From positions 6,510,001-6,542,000 of the forward strand of contig NC_010628.1 of assembly GCF_000020025.1 (NCBI RefSeq): a stretch of 32,000 nt of DNA, given 5' to 3'. Source of the DNA: Nostoc punctiforme PCC 73102. Lineage in GTDB: Bacteria > Cyanobacteriota > Cyanobacteriia > Cyanobacteriales > Nostocaceae. Shown here piece after piece: positions 10,213-23,089 of this stretch. Below the pieces are notes generated by a model that did no database searches, had not been told where the DNA came from, and saw nothing but the letters and a program-made list of their open reading frames with translations. The position numbers and the translations under genes are program-made. How positions within the stretch are numbered: the stretch's first letter is position 1; every line of letters starts with the position of its first letter.

Positions 10213-11433
10213 ATGACCCAAGCAACACAAAATCCTGTAGATATTATCAATGCTAGAGTGCCTGGTTACAAAGATTTGCAAATGCTCTTGGTTGATGAAG
10301 AGGACATAATTGAGCAAATCTTGCCAATGGGTACAGTAGAAGCACGCAGCCGTGCATCTCTAATAAACGTTGCTGGCGACTGGATTTCATTGGGTGGCGT
10401 TGATTTGCAAATTAACGGTGCTTTGGGATTGGCATTTCCTGATTTAACGGCTGAAAATGCTCATAAGCTCCAGGAAATCTCACAATTTTTATGGAATGTC
10501 GGAGTAGATGGATTTTTACCGACACTTGTGACAACTTCAGTAGAAAATATTCAGCGATCGCTTGCTATTATTGCTGAAGTTCTCCCCAATCAACCAGCAG
10601 GTGCCAAGATTCTGGGAGTACACCTAGAAGGGCCATTTTTAAATCTCCAAAAGCGCGGCGCACACCCGGCAGAGTATCTATTACCCCTGACAATGGATCG
10701 GGTAAAGCGGGTTTTGGGTGATTATGCCTATATCGTGAAAGTCATCACCTTAGCACCGGAGTTAGATTTCACTGGGGAAGTAATTCCATATTTGCGTTCT
10801 CTGGGGATTACTGTCAGTTTAGGGCATTCTCAGGCCACATCTGCTCAAGCACAATGTGCCTTTGAACAAGGTGCAACGATGGTAACTCATGCCTTCAATG
10901 CCATGCCAGCATTACATCACCGAGAACCAGGATTATTAGGGGCAGCAATTACCCATCCTGATGTGATGTGTGGTTTTATTGCTGATGGTGAACACGTTTC
11001 GCCCATGATGCTGCAAATTTTACTTCGCGCTAGCTATCAAGAAAAAGGGCTGTTTCTCGTCAGCGATGCCCTTTCCCCTCTAGGGCTATCCGATGGCGTG
11101 TATCCTTGGGACAGTCGGCAAATTGAAGTTAAAAACGGTACGGCACGATTGGCCGATGGCACTTTGTCAGGGACGACTTTACCCTTGTTGGTGGGAGTGC
11201 AAAATTTGGTGAAGTGGGGAATTTGTGATGTAGAAAGTGCGATCGCTTTAGCTACTAATGCACCTAGAAAAGCGATTGGTTTACCAGGGATTGTTAAGAG
11301 TCAATCCGCTAACTTATTACGCTGGCATTGGGATGAGACTACAAAAGAATTAACTTGGCGACGTGCCATCACCACAGAACTGCTCAAGAAGCCAGAAGAT
11401 GGGAATTTATCTGTTGTTCTCAACTCCATATAA
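10213..11433 (+). CDS. nagA: N-acetylglucosamine-6-phosphate deacetylase
   Basis: Amidohydrolase motifs HLEGPFL, GHSQA, THAFNAM, ADGEH and VSDA. The ORF track starts at 10162. ATG at 10213 (MTQATQNP) is favoured because the upstream 17 codons look like a hydrophobic artefact. Confidence 0.88.
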   Translation: MTQATQNPVDIINARVPGYKDLQMLLVDEEDIIEQILPMGTVEARSRASLINVAGDWISLGGVDLQINGALGLAFPDLTAENAHKLQEISQFLWNVGVDGFLPTLVTTSVENIQRSLAIIAEVLPNQPAGAKILGVHLEGPFLNLQKRGAHPAEYLLPLTMDRVKRVLGDYAYIVKVITLAPELDFTGEVIPYLRSLGITVSLGHSQATSAQAQCAFEQGATMVTHAFNAMPALHHREPGLLGAAITHPDVMCGFIADGEHVSPMMLQILLRASYQEKGLFLVSDALSPLGLSDGVYPWDSRQIEVKNGTARLADGTLSGTTLPLLVGVQNLVKWGICDVESAIALATNAPRKAIGLPGIVKSQSANLLRWHWDETTKELTWRRAITTELLKKPEDGNLSVVLNSI

Positions 11434-15146: not shown

Positions 15147-15168
15147 TCATCTTCAAGTATGTTAAGTA

Positions 15169-16907
15169 GGGCTTGCTGAAAAAAAAGAAAAGGTTGCAGT
15201 CTCTAGATTCTCAGACCAAAGAAGTATATTCAGGTGCAAGACAAGAAGGTAAAATAGCCCAAAATCCTTGCATCACAGTGGTTCGTCGCAGCATAGTGTA
15301 TCATTATTAACTATGTACTGAAAAGAAGAATCAACTCCAATTCCAGCAGAAAGTTTTGAGCTTCCATTTGAGGGAAAGTTATCATCAGATAATCGTTGGG
15401 TAATTATGGCCGATTTAATACCCTGGACAGAATTTGAGTCGGAATATTCTGCCGGATTCTCCGCAGAGATAGGGGCACCAGCAAAGTCATTTCGGATGGC
15501 GTTAGGTGCATTAATAATTAAAGAGAAACTAGGTATAAGCGACAGGGAAACAGTAGAGCAAATCAAGGAGAATCCTTATTTACAGTACTTTATAGGGATG
15601 TCATCTTATAGTAACAAAACTCCATTTGACGCATCCATGTTAGTACATTTTCGAGAAAGAATCAGTGCAGAACTAGTCAATAATGTGAATCAAGAAATGG
15701 TTAAGAAGATGCTAGAGTTAGCATCTTCTATTGACACCGAAAAAAAAACAGAAGACGCTCGCGAACTCGCTAACGCTGCGCTATCGACAGAAAAAGCAGC
15801 AGAACAAGGTAATACGCTAAGAAATCGAGGGAAATTAATATTAGATGCGACTTGTGTGCCTAGTGATATCAGCTATCCAACAGATTTAAACCTATTAAAT
15901 CAAGCGAGAAAACAGACAGAAAGAATAATTGACTTGCTTTATGAACAGATAAAGGGAATATTAGAGAAAAAACCAAGGACTTACCGAGAAATAGCTAGGA
16001 AAGACTACTTAGAAGTAGCTAAAAAACGTCGTGTATCTCAAAAAGAGAGGAGAAAAGCGATTAAAAAACAACTCCAATATATTAAAAGAAACTTATCCTA
16101 TATTGACCAGCTAATTGTAGCAGGAGCATCTCTAAAAAGTTTAACTAATAGACAATATAAGATGTTGCTGGTAGTCGCAGAAGTATATCGTCAACAACTA
16201 TGGCTGTATGAAAATAAAAAGCAGAGCATTGATGACCGTATTGTAAGTTTAAGCCAACCACATATCCGTCCAATTGTCCGAGGAAAAGCGGGTAAAGCCG
16301 TGGAATTTGGCGCTAAACTATCTGCTAGTTACTTTGATGGATATGCATTTTTAGACCATATTAGATGGGATAACTTTAATGAATCAGGAGACTTAAAAAC
16401 ACAAATAGAATCCTTTAAAAACTACACTGGATATTATCCAGAATCTGTTCATGTTGATAAAATTTATCGCAAAGCGAGAAAACCGATCTTGGTGCAAAGA
16501 AAGAGGTATTAGAATCAGTGGAGTTCCTTTAGGAAGACCGCCAAAAAATGTGAGTAAAGAAAAAAAGAAGCAAGCTTTACAAGATGAGAGGATTCGTAAT
16601 TGTATTGAAGGCAAATTTGGACAAGCTAAAAGAAGATTTAGCTTGAGTAGAGTAATGGCGAAACTTCCTCATACAACTCTAACTGTGATTGCTATTACTT
16701 TTTTAGTCATGAATCTTTCTACTCACCTGTCACGGTTTTTTTGTGCCTTTTTATGTCTATTTTGGAAAAATAGACATTTTTTAGCGATTGACATAACCAA
16801 GCATTATGATTTTGCTAGCTATAGGCAACAAAAACTTATCTTTAACCTTGCTTAAATAACTAGTCAACCCAAAAGAATTGCTTTTTTATGACTTTTTCAG
16901 CAAGCCC
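15169..16907 (+). mobile_element. Defective IS element (IS5/IS1182-type DDE transposase), 1739 bp
   Basis: Perfect 15-bp terminal inverted repeats GGGCTTGCTGAAAAA (15169-15183 and the complement at 16893-16907). Direct repeat TAAGTA at 15163-15168 and 16908-16913. Because TA|GGGC...GCCC|TA is itself symmetric, the duplication could also be read as 4 bp (AAGT) or 2 bp (AG). The uninterrupted paralogous sequence at 17650-17665 supports these boundaries. Confidence 0.85.
15313..16855 (+). pseudogene. IS transposase with a nonsense codon at codon 3 and a +1 frameshift
   Basis: ATG TAC TGA at 15313-15321 is in frame with ...KEESTPIPAESFELPFEGKLSSDNRWVIMADLIPW (ORF track 15406..16512). The second ORF, 16451..16855, continues the protein (RENRSWCKERGIRISGVPLGRPPK). 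Removing one A from AAA at 16471-16473 joins ...HVDKIYRK to RENRSWCKERG. Confidence 0.8.
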
Positions 16908-16913
16908 TAAGTA

Positions 16914-17032
16914 GACGTAGTTAGGTTAATACTCAAGGTTTCAAGTTGTTGGTTTATCCAAGTAATTGCGATCGCTCCATCAGTCTCAATCGCCCGTTAT
17001 ACTTCTGTTTTAGCAATTTCCAGCAGTTGTTT
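16914..17032 (-). repeat. Copy C of the specificity-domain 3' end plus 3' UTR (degenerate remnant)
   Basis: The minus strand reads KQLLEIAKTEV*RAIETDGAIAITWINQQLETL, against KQLLEIAKTGVERAIETDEATATIWINQQLEAL at the true gene end. 82 of 98 nt match copy A by hand alignment. Its UTR part continues at 15156-15168 on the other side of the IS. Confidence 0.8.
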
Positions 17033-17408
17033 ATATATCCCTTTCTTCATCATTGATTGTCTGTTGCTCATATTCTGCAATGATGCTCTGAATATCCTTT
17101 GCTGCAATATCAACTTGTTCTGATTTGGTATAAACAGTAAGCAGAATGATTCCAGTTGCTGTTTTGACGTAATAAATAAGACGATAGCCACCACTTTTAC
17201 CTTTTTGAGCGTCGCTATTTCGGACTCTCAACTTGAAGATTGCATAACTAACACCAGGTATTTGATCTCCTGGCAACTCTCCTTGCTGAAGTTGTTCGAT
17301 AACAGGTTGTATATCATTCCGAATACTGCGATATTTCTTAGCAAGAGTGCGTAGATTTCGGTTGAAGGTTGCAGAAGCCTCAACTTGAATAAAAGGCTGA
17401 TCAGTCAT
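17031..17408 (-). CDS. RelE/ParE-superfamily toxin (HigB/Gp49-like)
   Basis: KGKSGGYRLIYYV ... ILLTVYTKSE pattern typical of this superfamily. ATG at 17408 (MTDQPFIQ) overlaps the upstream stop by 8 nt (ATGACTGA). The ORF track's longer start at 17435 is unlikely. Confidence 0.8.
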   Translation of the reverse strand: MTDQPFIQVEASATFNRNLRTLAKKYRSIRNDIQPVIEQLQQGELPGDQIPGVSYAIFKLRVRNSDAQKGKSGGYRLIYYVKTATGIILLTVYTKSEQVDIAAKDIQSIIAEYEQQTINDEERDI

Positions 17409-17640
17409 CTTTAAGACCTTCCCAAAGTTGAGCAACGGGAATTGTTTGTCCAGTCATGGCTTCCTGCCAAGCTTGCCGAAAATCTGCTAAAACTTCTGTC
17501 TGAGATGTCTCATCTGGGGTTTCTTCATCTGGAATTAAAACAATGACTTCTACACGGCTATTTTTATCTATTGTGAGAGGATGATCTAAGGTTAGTTGTC
17601 CCTCCTCATTGATCGTTGCCATGACTTTAAGTGCTTTCAT
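17401..17640 (-). CDS. Antitoxin partner (small acidic protein, AbrB/SpoVT-like N-terminus)
   Basis: 79 aa, directly upstream of and overlapping the toxin. GGAG lies 7 nt before the ATG. N-terminal GQLTLDHPLTIDKNSRVEVIVLI beta-rich segment and an acidic C-terminal half. Confidence 0.65.
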   Translation of the reverse strand: MKALKVMATINEEGQLTLDHPLTIDKNSRVEVIVLIPDEETPDETSQTEVLADFRQAWQEAMTGQTIPVAQLWEGLKDD

Positions 17641-17649
17641 TGCTACTCC

Positions 17650-17775
17650 AGTATGTTAAGTGGTTGTGATTAGGTTAATGACCAAGGTTAGATTCAAGGT
17701 TTCAAGTTGTTGGATTATCCAAGTTGTGGCTGTCGCTTCATCAGGTGCGATCGCCCGTTCTACTCCTGTTTTAGC
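17650..17775 (-). repeat. Copy B of the specificity-domain 3' end plus 3' UTR (remnant, 40-codon ORF 17656..17778)
   Basis: The minus strand reads M-AKTGVERAIAPDEATATTWIIQQLETLNLTLVINLITTT*. 70 of 80 nt match copy A by hand alignment. The UTR part (AGTATGTTAAGT...TTAGGTTAAT) is shared with copy C. Confidence 0.8.
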
Positions 17776-17783
17776 CATTCAAC

Positions 17784-18365
17784 TCAAACGTTTGAAAAGT
17801 CGATATTTTCGTAAAGTTCTGCAATTTGAATTTGCAACTCAAAGGTATTCAAAGAAAGGGTGACAGTTGGATCGTCGTATTCTGAAAATAGCCACTGATG
17901 AGCGGCTGTTTTGACATGATGCTCAACGTGTATGCGATATTGATCGATCAGCAAATATTCTTGAAAGGTAGGAATTTGACGATAGGCAACAAATTTATCA
18001 CCACGGTCATAGTTTTGGGTGGACTTAGACAACACTTCAGCGATAAAGCAAGGGTTCACCACGGTATCTTTGCGTCCAGTTTGAAGTTCTAAGGGTTTGG
18101 GCAGAACCATCGCATCAGGGTAAGTATAGAGATTTGCATCGGGAATCCAGAGTCGTTGATCCAGGATAAATACACGATAGGGCTTTCCCCGCAATGCTGC
18201 TTTCAGGATAGCCACAAGGTTGCTGGTAATATCATTATGGTCTGGGGTTCCACCAGTCATTGGAATAATTTCTCCATCACGGTATTCGTTGCGGATGTCT
18301 GAGGCGATTTCAAGTTCTAAATACTCTTCAACGGTGTAGTGTTTTGTCTCAGGTTGAGCAATCAT
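17784..18365 (-). CDS. Uma2-family (DUF820) PD-(D/E)xK putative endonuclease
   Basis: YTVEEYLELE...EYRDGEIIPMTGGTPDHN N-terminus, then YPDAMV ... IAEVLSKST (D...ExK-like) typical of Uma2. The ATG at 18365-18363 overlaps the TGA of the upstream specificity domain (ATGA). Confidence 0.9.
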   Translation of the reverse strand: MIAQPETKHYTVEEYLELEIASDIRNEYRDGEIIPMTGGTPDHNDITSNLVAILKAALRGKPYRVFILDQRLWIPDANLYTYPDAMVLPKPLELQTGRKDTVVNPCFIAEVLSKSTQNYDRGDKFVAYRQIPTFQEYLLIDQYRIHVEHHVKTAAHQWLFSEYDDPTVTLSLNTFELQIQIAELYENIDFSNV

Positions 18366-19291
18366 GTCAGTTTTACCCCCAAGGCTTCAAGTTGCTGGTT
18401 TATCCAAATTGTAGCTGTCGCTTCATCGGTTTCTATTGCCCGTTCTACTCCTGTTTTAGCAATTTCTAGCAGTTGTTTGGATTTTAGTTTTAATGAAAAT
18501 GATGATTTTATCTTCTCAGCAATCTTTTGCTGCTGATATTTTGGTAAAATTGGAATTAACAAATTGGCTAAATCTGGTTGAGAAATACTATAGTAAGCCA
18601 CACCATGAACTCGATGTTCAACCTGTAAATAACCAAATTTGGAATTCAAAAATAAACTCACATACTCTGGTAAAACTTCTTGTCTAGAAACTGAAGTTAA
18701 ACGTACAAGCATAATTTCACTACTTATAATACCGTTAACTTCTAGTTCTGTAACAACTGCGGAATTACCAAAACTACCTTTACGGGTAAAAATAATATCT
18801 CCGATTTGTAGACCTACAGACTTATCAACATTAGCCATCGTGATGGGAATTTTTACGGCACTTTCAAAATTAATCTGTCCGTTTTTGACATCACCAACAC
18901 GAATATAAGGCGTTCCTTCCTCGGTATACTCTCGATAGTCAAAACCGTTTTGAATTGGTTCTATCAATGAACCTAAGTTTTGAGATAGAAAACCACAATC
19001 TTTAATAGCTTCTTCTACTTGATCGTATTTTGGCTGGTAATATTCAGCGTCGAAGCGGCCAGAGGACAGGAACGACTCAGCAAAACTCTTGACGGCAACG
19101 GTTTCTTCCGTGGGTTGCCAGTCCTTCAAGCCAAGCTCCGACAACAGCAAATCCTCAGCTTGTTGATAAATGAGTTTGCTTGTATCTACTTCTATATGTG
19201 ATTGATCGACTAATTTCTCAATTAATTGCTGAAATAAGGTAGAGAAAATCGGAAAGAGAATATTCTTTAAGTAGTATGGGGCTAGTTCAGG
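18362..19291 (-). pseudogene. R-M-S fragment 5: central conserved region plus target recognition domain 2 (HsdS-like)
   Basis: Same frame as fragment 4: PELAPYYLKNILFPIFSTLFQQLIEKL...LSELGLKDW...GRFDAEYYQPKY...HGVAYYSISQPDLANLLIPILPKYQQQKIAEKI. ORF track 18362..19150 is the part after a TTG. Confidence 0.8.
18381..18478 (-). repeat. Copy A: native 3' end of the specificity domain (inside the coding sequence)
   Basis: Encodes KQLLEIAKTGVERAIETDEATATIWINQQLEAL. Reference copy for repeats B and C. Confidence 0.85.
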
Positions 19292-20458
19292 CTATACCCC
19301 TCCATACATCCCTTTATTAATCTGTTCTCTGCCATAAAAAGTATTTAGAAAAACTGCCAGAAAAGACTGGCTGATTTTCTTATTTCTTAGTATGAATACA
19401 TGAGATAATGCAATTGCTTCAATCTCTCCTTTGAAAATCAAGGTATCACCAAAATTTGCACCAGTTATTGTGATAAGGACATCGTTCTTTTGAATAATAT
19501 TTTTAGATAACTTTGCGGCATCTTCTTCAGATATATAAACTTGATTCGATAGGTCAACTCTTAGCGGACGCAAATTTTGAGTTCTAAAAAATAGGACTCC
19601 TGATGAGTCATCTTCTACATATTCTCGTTTGATTTCCGTTGGGTGAATAATTATAGGTTGAGTAGAACTTAGCCTTGTATGTGGCAAAGCTTTGATTTCA
19701 GCCTCGACTTGAAAGTATATTCTCTTAAAAAACTCACTGTCAAATCTAAAATGAAGGTTATGATCAAGAGCCTGATTTAAGCTCACTTCAACCGCTTCCA
19801 GCCCATCCATTAACTGCTGATACTTCACAGCATCAAACGGTGTAACAGATGGGCTGAGTTCAAAAAAACTGAAGTTCTCCTTTTTGGCAAACTCAATAAA
19901 CGCTTCCGCAATACCGTCTTCTGTCTTTCCTTCGTGGTTATACAGGTCGTGATCCACCACTAAATGTTCGTGATTATCTCGCAAAAAATCACCCTCTACC
20001 CCAACGACTCGTTGCACCGGAGAAGGCGGCATCAAGTCGCTGAGTTCATCATCGGGCGGTGAAGCCGTAGACGATGAAATCTTGCGCCAAATCTTGTCTC
20101 CAGAGTTATCCTTCCCTGACTTTCGCATCGTGGCAAAAAAGATATTGTAGTCATCCTGTCGAGGGCAGAGTGCGCCTGCTTTGGGGTCGTCGTTCCATTT
20201 CTGCACAAACAGCACTGAGGTTTTTGTGCCCGTGTGCGGCTTAAAGGTGTTGCCATGTAGTCCCACCACTGCCAAAATTCGGCAGCGTTCTGCAATAAAA
20301 TCTCGAATGTTCTTATCGGAAGAGTTGTTAAAGCGTCCTTGGGGAAGTACGATCGCCATTCTACCCCCTGGTTTCAAAAGACTTGTCGGGAAATAAGAGA
20401 GAATAGACAGCAGTGGTAGGGAAGAATGATGCTGAATATTGAAGGTGCGCTGAAGCAA
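19292..20458 (-). pseudogene. R-M-S fragment 4: methyltransferase C-terminus fused to target recognition domain 1, ending at an in-frame TAG
   Basis: The first 27 codons of the track ORF are IS-end read-through. Genuine sequence starts at KPGGRMAIVLPQGRFNN (20375-20373, just below the 20376-20378 TSD). RFDSEFF opens an HsdS-like TRD. TAG at 19292-19294. Confidence 0.8.
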
Positions 20459-21381
20459 GACCGACTGTTGAGGGCATTAACTGGGTTGAACCGGAAAGCA
20501 TTTGATGCCCTTTTGCCCACGTTTACCACGATGTACCTAGATACTCAACAGGCCAAGCCTCGTCAACGTGGCCTGGGTGGAGGACGCAAAGCCCGCTTAC
20601 TTACAGCCCAAGACAAATTGTTTTTCATCCTTTTCTATTTCAAATGTTATCCGACCTTCGATGTGGCGGGACTGCTCTTTGATATGCATCGCTCCCAGGC
20701 ACATGAGTGGATGCATCGATTGCAGCCAATATTAGAAGCGGCTTTGGGACAGAAGATGGCGCTGCCGGAACGCCATCTCGAAAGCATTGAAGCATTTTTG
20801 TCACGCTTTCCAGGAGTGCAACGAGTGATGATTGATGGGACAGAACGCCCAATTGCGCGACCTCAAGAAAGAGAACAACAACAACAGAATTACTCCGGTA
20901 AAAAGAAACGTCATACGCGTAAACACTTGGCGGCAGTTGATGAAACCAAACGGGTCTTGATCTTAAGCAAAGCACGAGAAGGCAAACTGCATGACAAACG
21001 TTTTCATGACGAAGATGACATTGCAGGTAGTGTGCCTGATGAAATTCCGATTGAAGTAGACTCGGGCTTTCAGGGATTACAGAAGCAGTATGACAATCTC
21101 CATCTTCCTCACAAAAAGCCCAAAGGGGGCAAGTTAAGTGACCTTCAAAAAACGGAGAATCGTCAATTGAGTCAATCCCGTGTAGTTTGCGAAAATGCCT
21201 TTGCTGGTGTGAAGCGCTACAACGCCGCCAGTGTCATTTATCGTAATCGGATTGAAAACTTTGATGACCATTTGATGCTGACCGCAGCAGGATTATGGAA
21301 CTTCTACTTGATGGCTGCTTAAGAGAATCCCAATTACAAGACCAGCATTGCCTCACTTATCTTTTATTTCCCGACAACTCT
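20379..21381 (+). mobile_element. IS element, 1003 bp (IS5-family, DDE_Tnp_4/Harbinger-like transposase)
   Basis: Terminal inverted repeats AGACTTGTCGGGAAATAA / TTATTTCCCGACAACTCT (1 mismatch). 3-bp duplication AAA at 20376-20378 and 21382-21384. Excision restores NLDFLKPGG in frame. Confidence 0.85.
20426..21322 (+). CDS. IS transposase, apparently intact (298 aa)
   Basis: N-terminal HTH-like LTGLNRKAFDALLPTF. DDE-type core with MIDGTERPI, YSGKKKRHTRK, VDSGFQG and VVCENAFAGVKRY. Confidence 0.88.
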   Translation: MMLNIEGALKQDRLLRALTGLNRKAFDALLPTFTTMYLDTQQAKPRQRGLGGGRKARLLTAQDKLFFILFYFKCYPTFDVAGLLFDMHRSQAHEWMHRLQPILEAALGQKMALPERHLESIEAFLSRFPGVQRVMIDGTERPIARPQEREQQQQNYSGKKKRHTRKHLAAVDETKRVLILSKAREGKLHDKRFHDEDDIAGSVPDEIPIEVDSGFQGLQKQYDNLHLPHKKPKGGKLSDLQKTENRQLSQSRVVCENAFAGVKRYNAASVIYRNRIENFDDHLMLTAAGLWNFYLMAA

Positions 21382-21384
21382 AAA

Positions 21385-21482
21385 AAGTCCAGGTTGCGCT
21401 CAATAAACAAAATGTCGCGCCCGACTTTGCTTTGCCACTTGCCATCCGGCTTTTTTGCTAGGTCATAGCGGGCAATCATGCG
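21385..21482 (-). pseudogene. R-M-S fragment 3: about 33 codons stranded between the MITE and the IS
   Basis: Own translation gives RMIARYDLAKKPDGKWQSKVGRDILFIERNLDF. It continues NPPFAGDIKEP upstream and KPGGRMAIVLP downstream. Confidence 0.75.
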
Positions 21483-21489
21483 CGGTTCT

Positions 21490-21621
21490 GATACTGTTGG
21501 CGAAAGTGTTACAAACGCATAAACAAAAGTGTTACAACTAAAAGCTGCAACGGCAGATTGAAGGTTTGAGCTTACATAATACTTTCAAATACAAGTATGT
21601 ATTACATTCGCCAACAGTATC
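21490..21621. mobile_element. 132-bp MITE inside the methyltransferase coding region
   Basis: Perfect 15-bp terminal inverted repeats GATACTGTTGGCGAA (21490-21504) / TTCGCCAACAGTATC (21607-21621). 7-bp target duplication CGGTTCT (21483-21489 and 21622-21628). No ORF. Confidence 0.8.
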
Positions 21622-22764
21622 CGGTTCTTTGATGTCCCCCGCAAAGGGCGGATTTGCCATCAGCACATCAAATTGAAACTCTCGATAGTCCTTGCTGTTT
21701 TTTGGTCGCAGCCGTTTGAGCCGTTTGAAGCCCTCATGGTAAATGTCATCCCAGTCATCTTGCTCGGTGACTTCATCCCACAGTTCATAGTCCAGGGTGT
21801 TCAGGTGCAACACATTCGTCTGCCCATCACCCGCAATCAGGTTCAGCGTCCGCGCCACCCGCACCGCCTTTTCATCAAAGTCGATGGCAAACACCTTGTC
21901 TTCCACATACTCTTTGCACCGGGGCGGCTTATCTTCCAGCGAAAATAAATGACTCGCTGACAATCCCTCATCATCTAAAATCTGCCGCCAGACATGAAAA
22001 ATCGTATGCACCGGAAACCCCGATGACCCCGCAGCTGTATCAATCATGTACTCATCCTCTTGCGGATTGAGCATTTTCACGCACAGATCAATTACATAGC
22101 GCGGCGTAAAAAACTGTCCCTTTTCACCCTTGCTGCTCTGGTTGATCAAATACTCAAATGCTTCATCGATTACATCCAGGTTGGAGTTAAACAGCTTCAC
22201 ATTTTCCAACGACGACACACAAACCGACAGGTGAGACGGCGTGAGGCTAATTTTGGCATCCTCACTAAACACCCCTTCCCATTTCTTCTTAGCCTTGTCG
22301 AAGAGATCCTGAATCTTAGTTTTCAGCGCGGCTTCTGTCTGTCCCGTATTGCGAAATTCTAGAGAACGGGTCGATCGCCTGTTGCCCTGCCCAGAATACC
22401 ACTCATCATAGAGCTTGGTGAAAATCAGCTTAAACAGTTCCTCAAATACATCTACCCCAGCATTTGCTAGCACATCATCTTCCATTTCTTCGATTAAGGT
22501 CTTGAGGGATTTATTCTCTTTCACCAACTTGTCATTGGCGATCAGGTCTTCTAGGGTAAACTTGATCTGGAGAATATCTGCCAGGGTTTGATTTGCATTG
22601 GGCAGCCCCGGAATGTCTTCAAAATAATTGGGGTCTTTGCGCTGGTAGTAGGAAATTTGATCGCCATTCGTCCAGACTGCGATCGGCGAACCTGTGGCAT
22701 TACAGTAAGAGCGCAGCTGGTCTTTCCCATCCTTCAGCTTTGGCTTTTTTAGCTCCACGAGCAT
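21538..22764 (-). pseudogene. R-M-S fragment 2: rest of the nuclease motif, HsdM-N-like region and methyltransferase motifs; the 3' end reads into the MITE
   Basis: VELKKP; QFFTPRYVIDLCVKMLNP; motif I IDTAAGSSGF; motif IV NPPFAG. After ...DIKEP the ORF enters MITE sequence (DTVGECNTY...). Confidence 0.8.
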
Positions 22765-23089
22765 ATAAACTGTGTTGGATGGAACGGTCTTTGTCCATCA
22801 CCACGATGTCTGCCCGTTTCACCTCTCGCCCAAAATTCACCCCATACTCAACCTGAATGCGACCGAGGGGATAGTGCAAGCGATCGCTCAAAACCCGTAA
22901 ATATAGTTGCCGGATTGCCTCCTCTGGCGTTAGCTTAATCGCCTTTTGGCGCACCAAACAAACTGTATAAGGAACATCACCGTTTTTGGTCGCCTTGAGA
23001 GTAATTGTCTGCTCTAACTGCTCAATTTCAGCGATCGCAAACTGCGACAGCTTATAATTTGAGTCCTTGAGGATATCGGCTAATTTCAT
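22700..23089 (-). pseudogene. R-M-S fragment 1: N-terminal HsdR-N-like PD-(D/E)xK domain up to the frameshift
   Basis: ...GREVKRADIVVMDKDR, then the frame is lost near 22775-22790. The other frame continues TVPSNTVYMLVELKKPKLKDG, so the D...ExK motif is split. Confidence 0.75.

What the first reader, a model, noticed from the sequence alone, without database searches (positions are those of the whole stretch)
18362..23089. Reconstructable single-chain nuclease-methylase-specificity enzyme (Type IIB/AloI-like) inactivated by four independent lesions
**Reconstruction**
- Reading the minus strand from 23089, five fragments join colinearly once the insertions are removed.
- The domain order is:
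  - an HsdR-N-like PD-(D/E)xK domain (ADIVV...VELKKP);
  - an HsdM-N-like helical region;
  - a gamma-class N6-adenine methyltransferase (FFTPR, IDTAAGSSGF, NPPFAG, LKPGGRMAIVLP);
  - with no intervening stop, two HsdS-type target recognition domains (RFDSEFF... and GRFDAEYYQPKY...), each followed by a conserved helix.
- Arithmetic: 4728 nt span, minus 1006 (IS plus TSD), minus 139 (MITE plus TSD), minus 1 (frameshift), gives 3582 nt. That is 1194 codons including the stop.

**Interpretation**
- An R-M-S fusion with two TRDs is the layout of Type IIB enzymes such as AloI, CjeI and TstI. It is not the layout of a classical three-subunit Type I system, and no hsdR gene is present here.
- Four separate hits suggest relaxed or negative selection on the enzyme, while its downstream passengers remain intact. 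The hits are the frameshift, the MITE, the IS and a nonsense codon.
Basis: partly seen in the sequence, partly recalled or inferred. Interest (0 to 1): 0.7.

Follow-up and report, generated by a model that had tools for sequence, protein, structure and literature searches.

The report
Dead single-chain restriction-modification gene in Nostoc
This is the wreck of one large gene for an enzyme that recognises, methylates and probably cuts DNA, recently killed by two mobile-element insertions, a 4-base duplication and a stop codon. The family is widespread and already partly known, so the case is well documented but ordinary.

Summary
On the minus strand, 23089..18362, five colinear fragments rebuild one ORF.

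The four lesions are:
- a 132-nt MITE plus a 7-bp target duplication (139 nt in all);
- a 1003-nt IS5-type IS plus a 3-bp duplication (1006 nt in all);
- a TAG at codon 883;
- a frameshift that is a 4-nt TCCA tandem duplication, not +1. The restored gene is therefore 3579 nt, or 1192 aa.

A syntenic Nostoc sp. UCD121 locus (about 96% identical) lacks all four lesions. It carries its own 206-nt deletion instead.

More than 100 intact homologues of 1160-1200 aa have the same layout: HSDR_N_2 nuclease, gamma N6A methyltransferase and two TRDs. They have no conserved HsdR or helicase neighbour.

The closest solved structure is the Type IIB enzyme BsaXI. Its catalytic residues E73/D90/E105/K107 align with E81/D94/E111/K113 here, which are invariant in the family. 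A 41%-identical two-gene relative on Anabaena variabilis plasmid D blocks conjugation experimentally.

Verdict: a recently pseudogenised member of a known kind (Type IIB-like, AloI/TstI architecture). Cutting on both sides of the site is untested.

A side observation may be more interesting. Toxin-antitoxin and Uma2 cassettes downstream are each followed by a non-coding copy of the gene's 3' end, and this recurs in other genomes.

The parts
22784..23089 (-). Fragment 1: codons 1-102, the first part of the N-terminal PD-(D/E)xK (HSDR_N_2) nuclease domain. It contains E81 and D94.
   Evidence: ORF 22700..23089; Pfam HSDR_N_2 at residues 55-163, 3e-26; E81 and D94 invariant in 86 and 60 homologues.
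22780..22783 (-). Lesion 1: a 4-nt tandem duplication (TCCA) that shifts the frame inside the nuclease domain.
   Evidence: Alignment with UCD121 and a Nostoc MAG, both of which lack these 4 nt; coordinates.
21622..22779 (-). Fragment 2: the ExK of the nuclease (VELKKP), a helical linker region, and methyltransferase motifs X (GQFFTPR), I (IDTAAGSSGF) and IV (NPPF), up to GDIKEP.
   Evidence: ORF 21538..22764; Pfam N6_Mtase at 305-597 and Eco57I; PADLOC MTase_I PDLC03034 at 1107 bits; alignment to BsaXI RM residues 234-622.
21490..21621 (.). Lesion 2: a 132-nt MITE with terminal inverted repeats, flanked by a 7-bp target duplication (21483-21489 and 21622-21628).
   Evidence: Inverted repeat I1; perfect 15-nt termini, found only at these two places in the window; absent from UCD121 with a 7-nt overlap; 29 related copies on 23 plasmid records, nearly all Nostocales.
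21382..21482 (-). Fragment 3: about 34 codons (RMIARYDLAKKPDGKWQSKVGRDILFIERNLDF) lying between the MITE and the IS.
   Evidence: Continuous with its neighbours in UCD121 and in all intact homologues.
20379..21381 (+). Lesion 3: a 1003-nt IS5-type insertion sequence with an intact 298-aa transposase (20426..21322, + strand) and a 3-bp target duplication. It is inserted in the FLKPGG motif of the methyltransferase.
   Evidence: 25-nt inverted repeats I2; DDE_Tnp_4, HTH_Tnp_4 and DDE_Tnp_1; 1006 nt absent from UCD121.
19295..20375 (-). Fragment 4: the C-terminal half of the methyltransferase (LKPGGRMAIVLP...), a conserved linker, and target recognition domain 1.
   Evidence: ORF 19292..20458; NCBIfam MADS5 and PRK09737 S-subunit hits starting at residues 731 and 781; PDB S subunits.
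19292..19294 (-). Lesion 4: a TAG nonsense codon (codon 883 of the 1192-aa reconstruction). Orthologues have Gln here (CAA in UCD121).
   Evidence: the GGVQPE sequence in P0001 and P0007.
18362..19291 (-). Fragment 5: the central conserved helix, target recognition domain 2, the C-terminal conserved helix and the native stop codon.
   Evidence: ORF 18362..19150; Pfam Methylase_S at 1005-1158; homologues end with the same sequence...WINQQLEALGVKLT.
17784..18365 (-). Context: an intact Uma2 (DUF820) nuclease-like gene whose ATG overlaps the stop codon of the restriction-modification gene (ATGA).
   Evidence: Pfam Uma2 at 1.3e-36; the same arrangement in UCD121 and in Nostoc ATCC 43529.
17681..17793 (-). 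Context: the second, non-coding copy of the gene's 3' end ('tail 2').
   Evidence: Direct repeat D1.
17031..17640 (-). Context: an intact toxin-antitoxin pair, a 79-aa antitoxin (17401..17640) and a RelE-like toxin (17031..17435).
   Evidence: Pfam RelE at 9.4e-6, just below the curated cut-off; the same pair lies downstream of homologues in L008, L009 and L011.
16920..17032 (-). Context: the third, non-coding copy of the gene's 3' end ('tail 3').
   Evidence: Direct repeat D1.

Best explanation
**What it is.** The stretch is a recently inactivated gene for a 1192-aa single-polypeptide restriction-modification-specificity enzyme with a Type IIB-like build.

**How the intact protein would work (inferred from relatives).**
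- Two C-terminal HsdS-type target recognition domains read the two halves of a bipartite site.
- The central gamma-class N6-adenine methyltransferase marks host DNA.
- The N-terminal PD-(D/E)xK domain (E81, D94, E111-x-K113) cuts unmodified DNA at a fixed distance from the site.
- There is no ATP-driven translocation, because there is no helicase domain or partner.
- Each chain carries one nuclease and one methyltransferase for two half-sites. The enzyme would therefore have to act as an oligomer, as the TstI homotetramer does.

**State in this genome.** Every function is destroyed.
- A TCCA duplication shifts the frame between D94 and ExK.
- A MITE sits just after motif IV (NPPF).
- An IS splits the FLKPGG motif.
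- A TAG separates TRD1 from TRD2.

**Timing.** Inactivation is recent. No other stop exists, and every residue that is invariant across the family is retained.

**Shown versus inferred.** Shown: the lesions, the architecture, the homology, the conserved catalytic residues and the absence of a partner gene. Inferred: the cleavage mode, oligomerisation and cofactor needs.
For: - **Reconstruction and lesions:**
- **Domains:** Pfam HSDR_N_2 (3e-26), N6_Mtase (9e-30), Eco57I and two Methylase_S stretches. PADLOC MTase_I PDLC03034 scores 1107 bits over residues 6-623, with many Specificity_I hits.
- **Intact relatives:** more than 100 intact single-chain homologues of 1160-1200 aa at 64-86% identity. 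At least 494 related loci in GTDB species genomes, fused in some phyla and split RM+S in others.
- **Neighbours:** no conserved neighbour and no HsdR or helicase.
- **Closest structure:** the best solved relative is the Type IIB enzyme BsaXI RM (6e-21 single sequence, 8e-23 profile), ahead of Type I HsdM (about 1e-11 to 1e-14). S.BsaXI matches residues 767-1145.
- **Catalytic residues:** the profile alignment puts E81/D94/E111/K113 on BsaXI E73/D90/E105/K107. Mutating those BsaXI residues abolishes cleavage (PMC11997821). The four residues are invariant in 86 N-terminal and 60 full-length homologues.
- **Fold:** the N-terminal model (pLDDT 85.7) matches Cas4, REase-like fold proteins, DUF820, BsaXI, BpuSI, DrdV and HsdR.
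- **Experiment on a relative:** the A. variabilis plasmid D HsdRM is 41% identical over residues 52-584 and keeps E..D..ExK. With its HsdS it strongly reduces conjugal transfer, including after transfer to other Nostoc strains (bioRxiv 10.1101/2025.10.21.683720).
- **Known architecture:** single-chain R-M-S Type IIB enzymes of similar size are established, e.g. TstI at 1251 aa, a homotetramer (PMC4027205).
Against: - No biochemical data exist for this subfamily. Cutting on both sides of the site, the defining Type IIB property, is unknown.
- The N-terminal part of the alignment to BsaXI is weak on its own (10.9 bits, independent E 0.66). Foldseek TM-scores are low (0.32-0.37) because only the core of about 110-130 residues superposes.
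- PADLOC files the closest RM-subunit model under 'Type I methyltransferase', and public annotation calls the protein only 'N-6 DNA methylase'.
- The protein lacks the C-terminal 'paddle' that BsaXI needs for cleavage: the RM part is about 700 aa here against 916 aa in BsaXI.
- Direct comparison with AloI, TstI and CjeI sequences was not possible.
Confidence: 0.75

Rival explanations
1. The family is a Type I-like M-S fusion. Its N-terminal HSDR_N_2 domain would not be the restriction nuclease but a DNA-binding, regulatory or docking module. Restriction, if any, would need an HsdR-type translocase-nuclease encoded elsewhere in the genome.
For: PADLOC's best model is labelled 'Type I methyltransferase' and sources name the protein 'type I restriction enzyme M protein'. 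The methyltransferase and TRDs also match EcoKI M and S. The nuclease-domain similarity to BsaXI is weak by sequence.
Against: The catalytic tetrad E-D-ExK is invariant across phyla, with 61-93% identity over 229 residues. No HsdR or helicase is conserved near 80 loci. BsaXI outscores Type I HsdM. The 41%-identical A. variabilis hsdRM+hsdS pair alone lowers conjugation in two heterologous Nostoc hosts.
Confidence: 0.12
2. It is a single-chain R-M-S enzyme of the Type IIG/IIL kind (like MmeI, BpuSI or DrdV). It would cut on one side of its site only, not excise the site as Type IIB enzymes do.
For: The Pfam Eco57I hit. The N-terminal model also matches the nuclease domains of BpuSI and DrdV. 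The protein lacks the BsaXI paddle implicated in cleavage.
Against: It has two HsdS-type TRDs with central and C-terminal conserved helices, which implies a bipartite Type I-like site. [quoted passage not shown] MmeI, DrdV and BpuSI are not found by sequence at E < 0.01, whereas BsaXI is.
Confidence: 0.1
3. It is a component (MAD2-MAD5 fusion) of a MADS-type multi-gene methylation-associated defence system.
For: NCBIfam MADS2 scores 308 bits over residues 42-621 and MADS5 scores 178 bits. PADLOC mad2 and mad5 also hit.
Against: Both NCBIfam scores are far below the curated cut-offs (720 and 400). MADS is an 8-gene operon, and none of the other mad genes is present in the window or conserved near homologues.
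Confidence: 0.02

Closest known systems
BsaXI (Type IIB, (RM)2S; PDB 8w0p)
   Same: It is the best solved relative by sequence and by profile. It has the same order of an N-terminal PD-(D/E)xK domain followed by a gamma N6A methyltransferase. Its catalytic E73/D90/E105/K107 align with E81/D94/E111/K113 here. Its S subunit, with two TRDs, matches residues 767-1145. It has no translocase.
   Different: BsaXI has a separate S subunit and a 916-aa RM chain with a C-terminal 'paddle' needed for cleavage. Here S is fused and the RM part is about 700 aa with no paddle. The similarity is distant: the profile match to BsaXI RM scores only 83 bits.
AloI / TstI / PpiI group (single-chain Type IIB)
   Same: One polypeptide carries nuclease, methyltransferase and DNA recognition for both halves of a bipartite site. 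The size is similar: TstI is 1251 aa against 1192 aa here.
   Different: Sequence relatedness was not tested because no sequences were available. TstI is a homotetramer that does not need SAM to cut; none of this is known for the present family.
Anabaena (Trichormus) variabilis ATCC 29413 plasmid D HsdRM + HsdS
   Same: It is 41% identical over residues 52-584, including the E..D..ExK nuclease motif and the methyltransferase motifs. It is cyanobacterial, has no HsdR, and is shown experimentally to block conjugal DNA transfer.
   Different: It is a two-gene system with a 917-aa RM and a 461-aa S. Its authors placed the nuclease motif at residues 444-452. The alignment here suggests instead that the N-terminal HSDR_N_2 domain is the nuclease.
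Split RM+S members of the same family (e.g. Klebsiella pneumoniae IncF plasmid NZ_LR890357; many Bacteroidota and Firmicutes)
   Same: They are 60-70% identical over the nuclease-methyltransferase part. An S gene with two TRDs lies immediately downstream.
   Different: RM (about 674-700 aa) and S (about 460 aa) are separate, overlapping genes, which is a BcgI-like rather than an AloI-like layout.
Classical Type I systems (EcoKI HsdM/HsdS)
   Same: The methyltransferase core and the TRD/coiled-coil organisation of S match.
   Different: There is no HsdR translocase. The nuclease is fused to the N-terminus of M.

Membership tests
Type IIB restriction-modification enzymes | Nuclease and methyltransferase in the same polypeptide, with an N-terminal PD-(D/E)xK catalytic site | tested here: met
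   HSDR_N_2 at 3e-26. E81/D94/E111/K113 are invariant and align to the BsaXI catalytic residues. The fold matches nucleases.
Type IIB restriction-modification enzymes | Type I-like specificity module with two TRDs (bipartite site), either fused (AloI/TstI) or as a separate subunit (BcgI/BsaXI) | tested here: met
   Two Methylase_S stretches. S-subunit models cover residues 725-1186. S.BsaXI matches 767-1145. Variable TRDs lie between conserved helices in 60 homologues.
Type IIB restriction-modification enzymes | No ATP-dependent translocase domain or partner | tested here: met
   No helicase domain in the protein. No conserved HsdR or helicase neighbour in 80 loci, nor in the window.
Type IIB restriction-modification enzymes | [quoted passage not shown] | not testable with these tools
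   This needs cleavage mapping with a purified intact orthologue.
AloI/TstI/PpiI sequence family | Detectable sequence homology to AloI or TstI along the whole chain | not tested
Only the architecture and size could be compared.
Classical Type I R-M | Separate HsdR with SF2 translocase in the same locus | tested here: not met
MADS (mad1-8) | MAD2 and MAD5 scores above the NCBIfam cut-offs, and the 8-gene operon | tested here: not met
   308 bits against a cut-off of 720, and 178 against 400. No other mad genes nearby.
Gamma-class N6-adenine DNA methyltransferases | Motif order X (FFTPR), then I (D.AAGSSGF), then IV (NPPF) | tested here: met
N6_Mtase at 9e-30.
Pseudogene (non-functional copy) | Disabling lesions that are absent from close orthologues | tested here: met
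   The +4 duplication, MITE, IS and TAG are all absent in UCD121. The methyltransferase motifs are physically separated by 1.1 kb of mobile DNA.

The most novel reading that the evidence does not exclude
The conserved last ~100 nt of this gene family may serve as a reusable landing pad for small defence or addiction cassettes.

**What is seen.**
- In the window, and independently in other Nostoc genomes, a Synechococcus MAG and a gammaproteobacterium (Methylovulum), the gene is followed by one or two cassettes.
- The cassettes are Uma2, RelE-type, HicAB, MNT/HepT, DUF2283 and Y1_Tnp+DUF2442.
- Each cassette ends in a decayed, non-coding copy of the gene's 3' end.
- The same cassette-plus-tail units recur with different neighbours.

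**Reading.** The pattern (homology, insert, homology) is what Campbell-type integration of small circles [tail + cassette] would leave. That would make this a recombination-based, integron-like cassette array riding on a horizontally mobile restriction gene.
Probability: 0.3. Interest if true: 0.6.

Novelty: new member of a known kind. Interest (0 to 1): 0.3.

Why it matters
**For this genome.** The locus should be annotated as one pseudogene plus an IS and a MITE, not as four or five separate 'methylase', 'HsdR N-terminal' and 'S subunit' genes. No bipartite m6A motif from this locus should be expected.

**More generally.**
- The analysis ties a large, poorly named protein family ('N-6 DNA methylase', 1160-1200 aa, common in Nostoc, Microcystis, Planktothrix and Picosynechococcus PCC 7002 plasmid pAQ6) to the Type IIB enzyme BsaXI.
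- It also ties the family to an experimentally active cyanobacterial system. That relative blocks conjugal DNA transfer, so family members may be barriers to DNA transfer into cyanobacteria; by analogy with engineered Type IIB enzymes (prior knowledge), their swappable TRDs might also offer new specificities.
- Four Nostoc orthologues, including the one in this window, are independently disrupted at or near the nuclease domain. This suggests the nuclease is costly and is lost first.

Tried and rejected
It gives an open frame, but orthologue DNA shows the real lesion is +4.
- **Full-length AlphaFold model.** The model of the intact orthologue P0001 was poor: pLDDT 60.8, pTM 0.33, with the methyltransferase region below 50. 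This is probably because the alignment is shallow in diversity. I did not use it for fold search.
- **Contig look-up of P0003.** Nothing was on record.
- **IS against plasmids.** No near-identical copy was found in the plasmid collection.
- **Literature.** A search for the Pfam architecture and for a methylome of the PCC 7002 pAQ6 homologue gave nothing relevant.
- **attC-like hairpin in the repeated 3' tail.** Single-strand folding energies are ordinary, with z from -1.0 to +0.3. An integron-type single-strand recombination site is therefore not supported.
- **MADS membership.** Rejected on score cut-offs and gene content.

Full report

Yes. Reading the minus strand from 23089, the ORF listing shows five pieces in different frames whose translations follow one another:
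- 22700..23089, ending in ...ADIVVMDKDRS...;
- 21538..22764, from MLVELKKP... to ...NPPFAGDIKEP;
- a short piece at 21382..21482;
- 19292..20458, ...LKPGGRMAIVLP... through TRD1;
- 18362..19150, TRD2 and the C-terminus.

Between them lie two mobile elements.
- The first is a 132-nt element at 21490-21621. It has 45-nt imperfect inverted repeats (I1) whose outer 15 nt are perfect and occur only there in the window. It is flanked by a 7-bp direct repeat.
- The second is a 1003-nt element at 20379-21381. It has 25-nt inverted repeats that are 88% complementary (I2). It carries an intact 298-aa transposase with DDE_Tnp_4, HTH_Tnp_4 and DDE_Tnp_1 domains.

Removing 139 and 1006 nt and restoring the frame gives one ORF with a single internal TAG.

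**2. Independent proof from a sister genome**

The protein search found P0007 (Nostoc sp. UCD121). Its contig, L001, is syntenic with the window at about 96% nucleotide identity. It has the same GGDEF-EAL gene upstream and the same Uma2 gene downstream.
- L001 runs straight through both insertion points. The BLAST segments overlap by exactly 7 and 4 nt, so the MITE and the IS are insertions with target duplications.
- L001 has CAA (Gln) where the window has TAG at 19292-19294.
- At the frameshift, both UCD121 and a Nostoc MAG (L003) lack four bases. The window reads GACCGT-TCCA-TCCAACAC and the others read GACCGT----CCCAACAC.

The frameshift is therefore a 4-nt tandem duplication at 22780-22783, not a 1-nt insertion. 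The corrected gene is 3579 nt, or 1192 aa plus the stop. That is the length of the intact Nostoc orthologue P0004.

The MITE belongs to a real repeat family. There are 29 related copies on 23 plasmid records, nearly all Nostocales, including A. variabilis plasmid D.

UCD121 has its own lesion: a 206-nt deletion of window positions 22437-22642. It splits that gene into ORFs of 149 aa and 985 aa.

**3. What the intact gene encodes**

- Pfam finds HSDR_N_2 (55-163, 3e-26), N6_Mtase (305-597, 9e-30), Eco57I and two Methylase_S stretches.
- The methyltransferase motif order is X (GQFFTPR), then I (IDTAAGSSGF), then IV (NPPF), which is the gamma class.
- PADLOC's closest model, PDLC03034, scores 1107 bits and covers residues 6-623. 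The nuclease-methyltransferase unit is thus a recognised family, although it is labelled 'Type I methyltransferase'.
- NCBIfam gives only sub-threshold MADS2 and MADS5 hits.
- More than 100 intact proteins of 1160-1200 aa match end to end at 64-86% identity. They come from Nostoc, Anabaena, Microcystis, Planktothrix, Microcoleus, Synechococcus PCC 6312 and others, and all are annotated merely as 'N-6 DNA methylase'.
- In an alignment of 60 of them, the first ~720 residues are highly conserved. The two TRDs are hypervariable and sit between a conserved central helix and a conserved C-terminal helix. This is the classic signature of swappable specificity domains.
- The window's sequence retains every family-invariant residue, so decay has not gone beyond the four gross lesions.

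**4. Distribution and partners**

A scan of one genome per GTDB species found at least 494 related loci.

In the 80 loci fetched, two layouts occur.
- Fused single ORFs occur in cyanobacteria, Selenomonadaceae, Methylovulum, Planctomycetota, Poribacteria and others.
- Split RM (about 694 aa) plus an overlapping S gene occurs in Bacteroidota, Firmicutes and Proteobacteria. The RM part there is still 64-70% identical.

The same duality appears on plasmids:
- Picosynechococcus PCC 7002 pAQ6: fused, 1179 aa, 78% identical;
- Klebsiella IncF plasmid: split, 674 + 463 aa;
- A. variabilis plasmid D: split, 917 + 461 aa.

Clustering all flanking ORFs from the 80 loci found no conserved partner. The commonest neighbour family occurs in 11 loci, and no HsdR or helicase is among them. 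The window itself holds no hsdR.

**5. Is the N-terminal domain a nuclease?**

- E81, D94, E111 and K113 are invariant in 86 N-terminal homologues. Annotated members come from cyanobacteria, Bacteroidota (Bacteroidales, Aequorivita, Psychroflexus) and Helicobacter (61-93% identity).
- An AlphaFold model of residues 1-229 is confident (pLDDT 85.7).
- The leading Foldseek PDB matches (ranks 1-18) are nearly all PD-(D/E)xK-type nucleases: Cas4, 'restriction endonuclease-like fold' proteins, DUF820, and BsaXI chain A (E 2.5e-3, probability 0.99). They also include the Type IIG enzymes BpuSI and DrdV and HsdR fragments.
- TM-scores are modest (0.32-0.37) because only the catalytic core superposes.
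- A family profile searched against PDB sequences ranks BsaXI RM first (8e-23), well above Type I HsdM proteins. It also hits S.BsaXI over residues 767-1145.
- Its weak N-terminal segment (10.9 bits) aligns vEYgvn/aDivv/vElKkP with kEYTIK/vDVLV/iEVKAP. That puts E81/D94/E111/K113 on BsaXI E73/D90/E105/K107.
- Those four BsaXI residues abolish cleavage when mutated and are reported as conserved across Type IIB enzymes (PMC11997821).

**6. Experimental anchor**

The A. variabilis plasmid D HsdRM is 41% identical to the repaired protein over residues 52-584 (E 4e-129). It keeps the same E..D..ExK pattern (LEVSVQFG / AADVIV / VECKKP).

Pratte and Thiel (bioRxiv 10.1101/2025.10.21.683720) report the following.
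- Deleting hsdRM, or losing plasmid D, makes the strain a much better conjugation recipient.
- Moving hsdRMS into Nostoc PCC 7120 and M131 drastically lowers conjugation.
- They propose a Type IIB system.
- They placed the PD...(D/E)XK motif at residues 444-452, inside the methyltransferase. The alignments here suggest the N-terminal HSDR_N_2 domain is the real nuclease. That is my inference.

**7. Mechanism**

Combining the anatomy with what is established for TstI and BsaXI, the intact enzyme most likely works as follows.
- It binds a bipartite site through TRD1 and TRD2.
- It methylates one adenine per half-site.
- On unmodified DNA, it uses the tethered N-terminal nuclease to cut at a fixed distance from the site, without ATP.
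- With one nuclease per chain it must oligomerise. TstI is a homotetramer that bridges two sites.

All of this is inference for this subfamily. Cutting on both sides, the defining Type IIB property, has not been tested.

In this window nothing can work. The nuclease is frameshifted between D94 and ExK. The methyltransferase is broken twice by mobile DNA. The specificity module is cut in two by the TAG.

**8. Selection**

Besides this window and UCD121, two other Nostoc orthologues are disrupted at or near the nuclease domain.
- Nostoc 'Peltigera membranacea cyanobiont' 210A has a frame break near residue 237, giving ORFs of 241 and 953 aa.
- Nostoc ATCC 43529 has a 978-aa ORF lacking residues 1-205.

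A further locus, L021, has a fragmented S part. It also hints that the nuclease goes first.

The downstream Uma2 gene and the antitoxin/RelE-like pair are intact.

**9. Side observation: repeated 3' ends**

The last ~113 nt of the gene (18366-18478) recur at 17681-17793 and at 16920-17032. Taking the 16920 copy as reference, the other two are 73% and 81% identical.
- Uma2 lies between copies 1 and 2.
- The toxin-antitoxin pair lies between copies 2 and 3.
- The extra copies are non-coding, with stops and frame breaks.

The same 'cassette plus tail' structure occurs elsewhere:
- UCD121: Uma2;
- Nostoc P12569: DUF2283, then the same antitoxin/RelE pair;
- a Synechococcus MAG: HicB/HicA;
- Nostoc ATCC 43529: Uma2, then MNT/HepT;
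- Methylovulum: Y1_Tnp plus DUF2442.

In all, 7 of 61 loci with a tail hit have two or more tails. Two of the seven are copies of the same UCD121 locus, so six are independent.

Cassettes recur with different neighbours. The left edges of all extra tails fall within about 25 nt of where the conserved block begins.

The tails have no unusual single-strand structure, which argues against an attC-like site.

The pattern 'homology, insert, homology' is what single-crossover integration of a small circle carrying the tail would produce. I could not distinguish this from debris of repeated allele replacement.

**10. Verdict**

The object is a pseudogene of a widespread, database-known and partly characterised kind. 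It is solid but not surprising.

Noticed in passing
window 16920-18478 (minus strand); also L001 13565-13666, L011 10801-11636, L013 10964-11074, L020 10500-11364, L026 11306-11395: The gene's conserved 3' end (~100 nt, encoding KQLLEIAKTGVERAIETDEATAT.WINQQLE.L) is repeated as decayed non-coding copies after each downstream cassette. The cassettes are Uma2, antitoxin+RelE-like toxin, DUF2283, HicB/HicA, MNT/HepT and Y1_Tnp+DUF2442. The same cassette-plus-tail units recur in different genomes with different neighbours. The tails show no significant hairpin. It may be a recombination-based cassette array.
   Followed up: partly
L001 9583-12958 (Nostoc sp. UCD121); L024 7001-10545; L020 6995-9931; L021 7001-10505: Orthologues in other Nostoc strains are independently disrupted, mostly at or near the nuclease domain. 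UCD121 has a 206-nt deletion giving 149 + 985 aa. The Peltigera cyanobiont 210A has a frame break giving 241 + 953 aa. ATCC 43529 has a 978-aa ORF lacking residues 1-205. L021 has a fragmented S part.
   Followed up: partly
window 15158-17402 versus L001 13646-14030: The two ~96%-identical Nostoc loci differ in downstream cassette content. The window has antitoxin+RelE-like toxin, tail 3 and a second IS (DUF772/DDE_Tnp_1_2 transposase in two overlapping ORFs, 15406..16512 and 16451..16855). UCD121 has a 69-aa RelB-like antitoxin gene instead.
   Followed up: partly
window 17784-18365 and 18362-18364: The Uma2 (DUF820) start codon overlaps the stop of the restriction-modification gene (ATGA). 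The same junction occurs in UCD121 and in Nostoc ATCC 43529. This suggests translational coupling of a second nuclease-like protein to the enzyme.
   Followed up: no
protein P0088 (940 aa, 96% identical over the nuclease-methyltransferase part): A very close relative carries only one TRD between the conserved helices (a 'half-S' form), while others swap TRD1 or TRD2 independently (P0003, P0022, P0082). This points to active TRD reassortment within the family.
   Followed up: no
L071, L077, L080, L086 (about 10436-11288): In some split-type loci (Rodentibacter, Bacteroidales), an extra partial S gene (TRD2 plus C-terminal helix) lies directly downstream of the S gene. It could be a spare specificity cassette.
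   Followed up: no
L006 (A. variabilis plasmid D) HsdRM, aligned residues 88-157: The published PD...(D/E)XK assignment for this experimentally studied enzyme (residues 444-452, inside the methyltransferase) is probably not the catalytic site. The conserved E..D..ExK lies in the N-terminal HSDR_N_2 domain (LEVSVQFG / AADVIV / VECKKP).
   Followed up: partly
window 21490-21621; H31 (NC_021575.1 26294-26426): The MITE that hit the gene has a 95.5%-identical copy on A. variabilis plasmid D, the plasmid that carries the related active hsdRMS system. It has 29 relatives across plasmids of Nostocales and one Acaryochloris.
   Followed up: no
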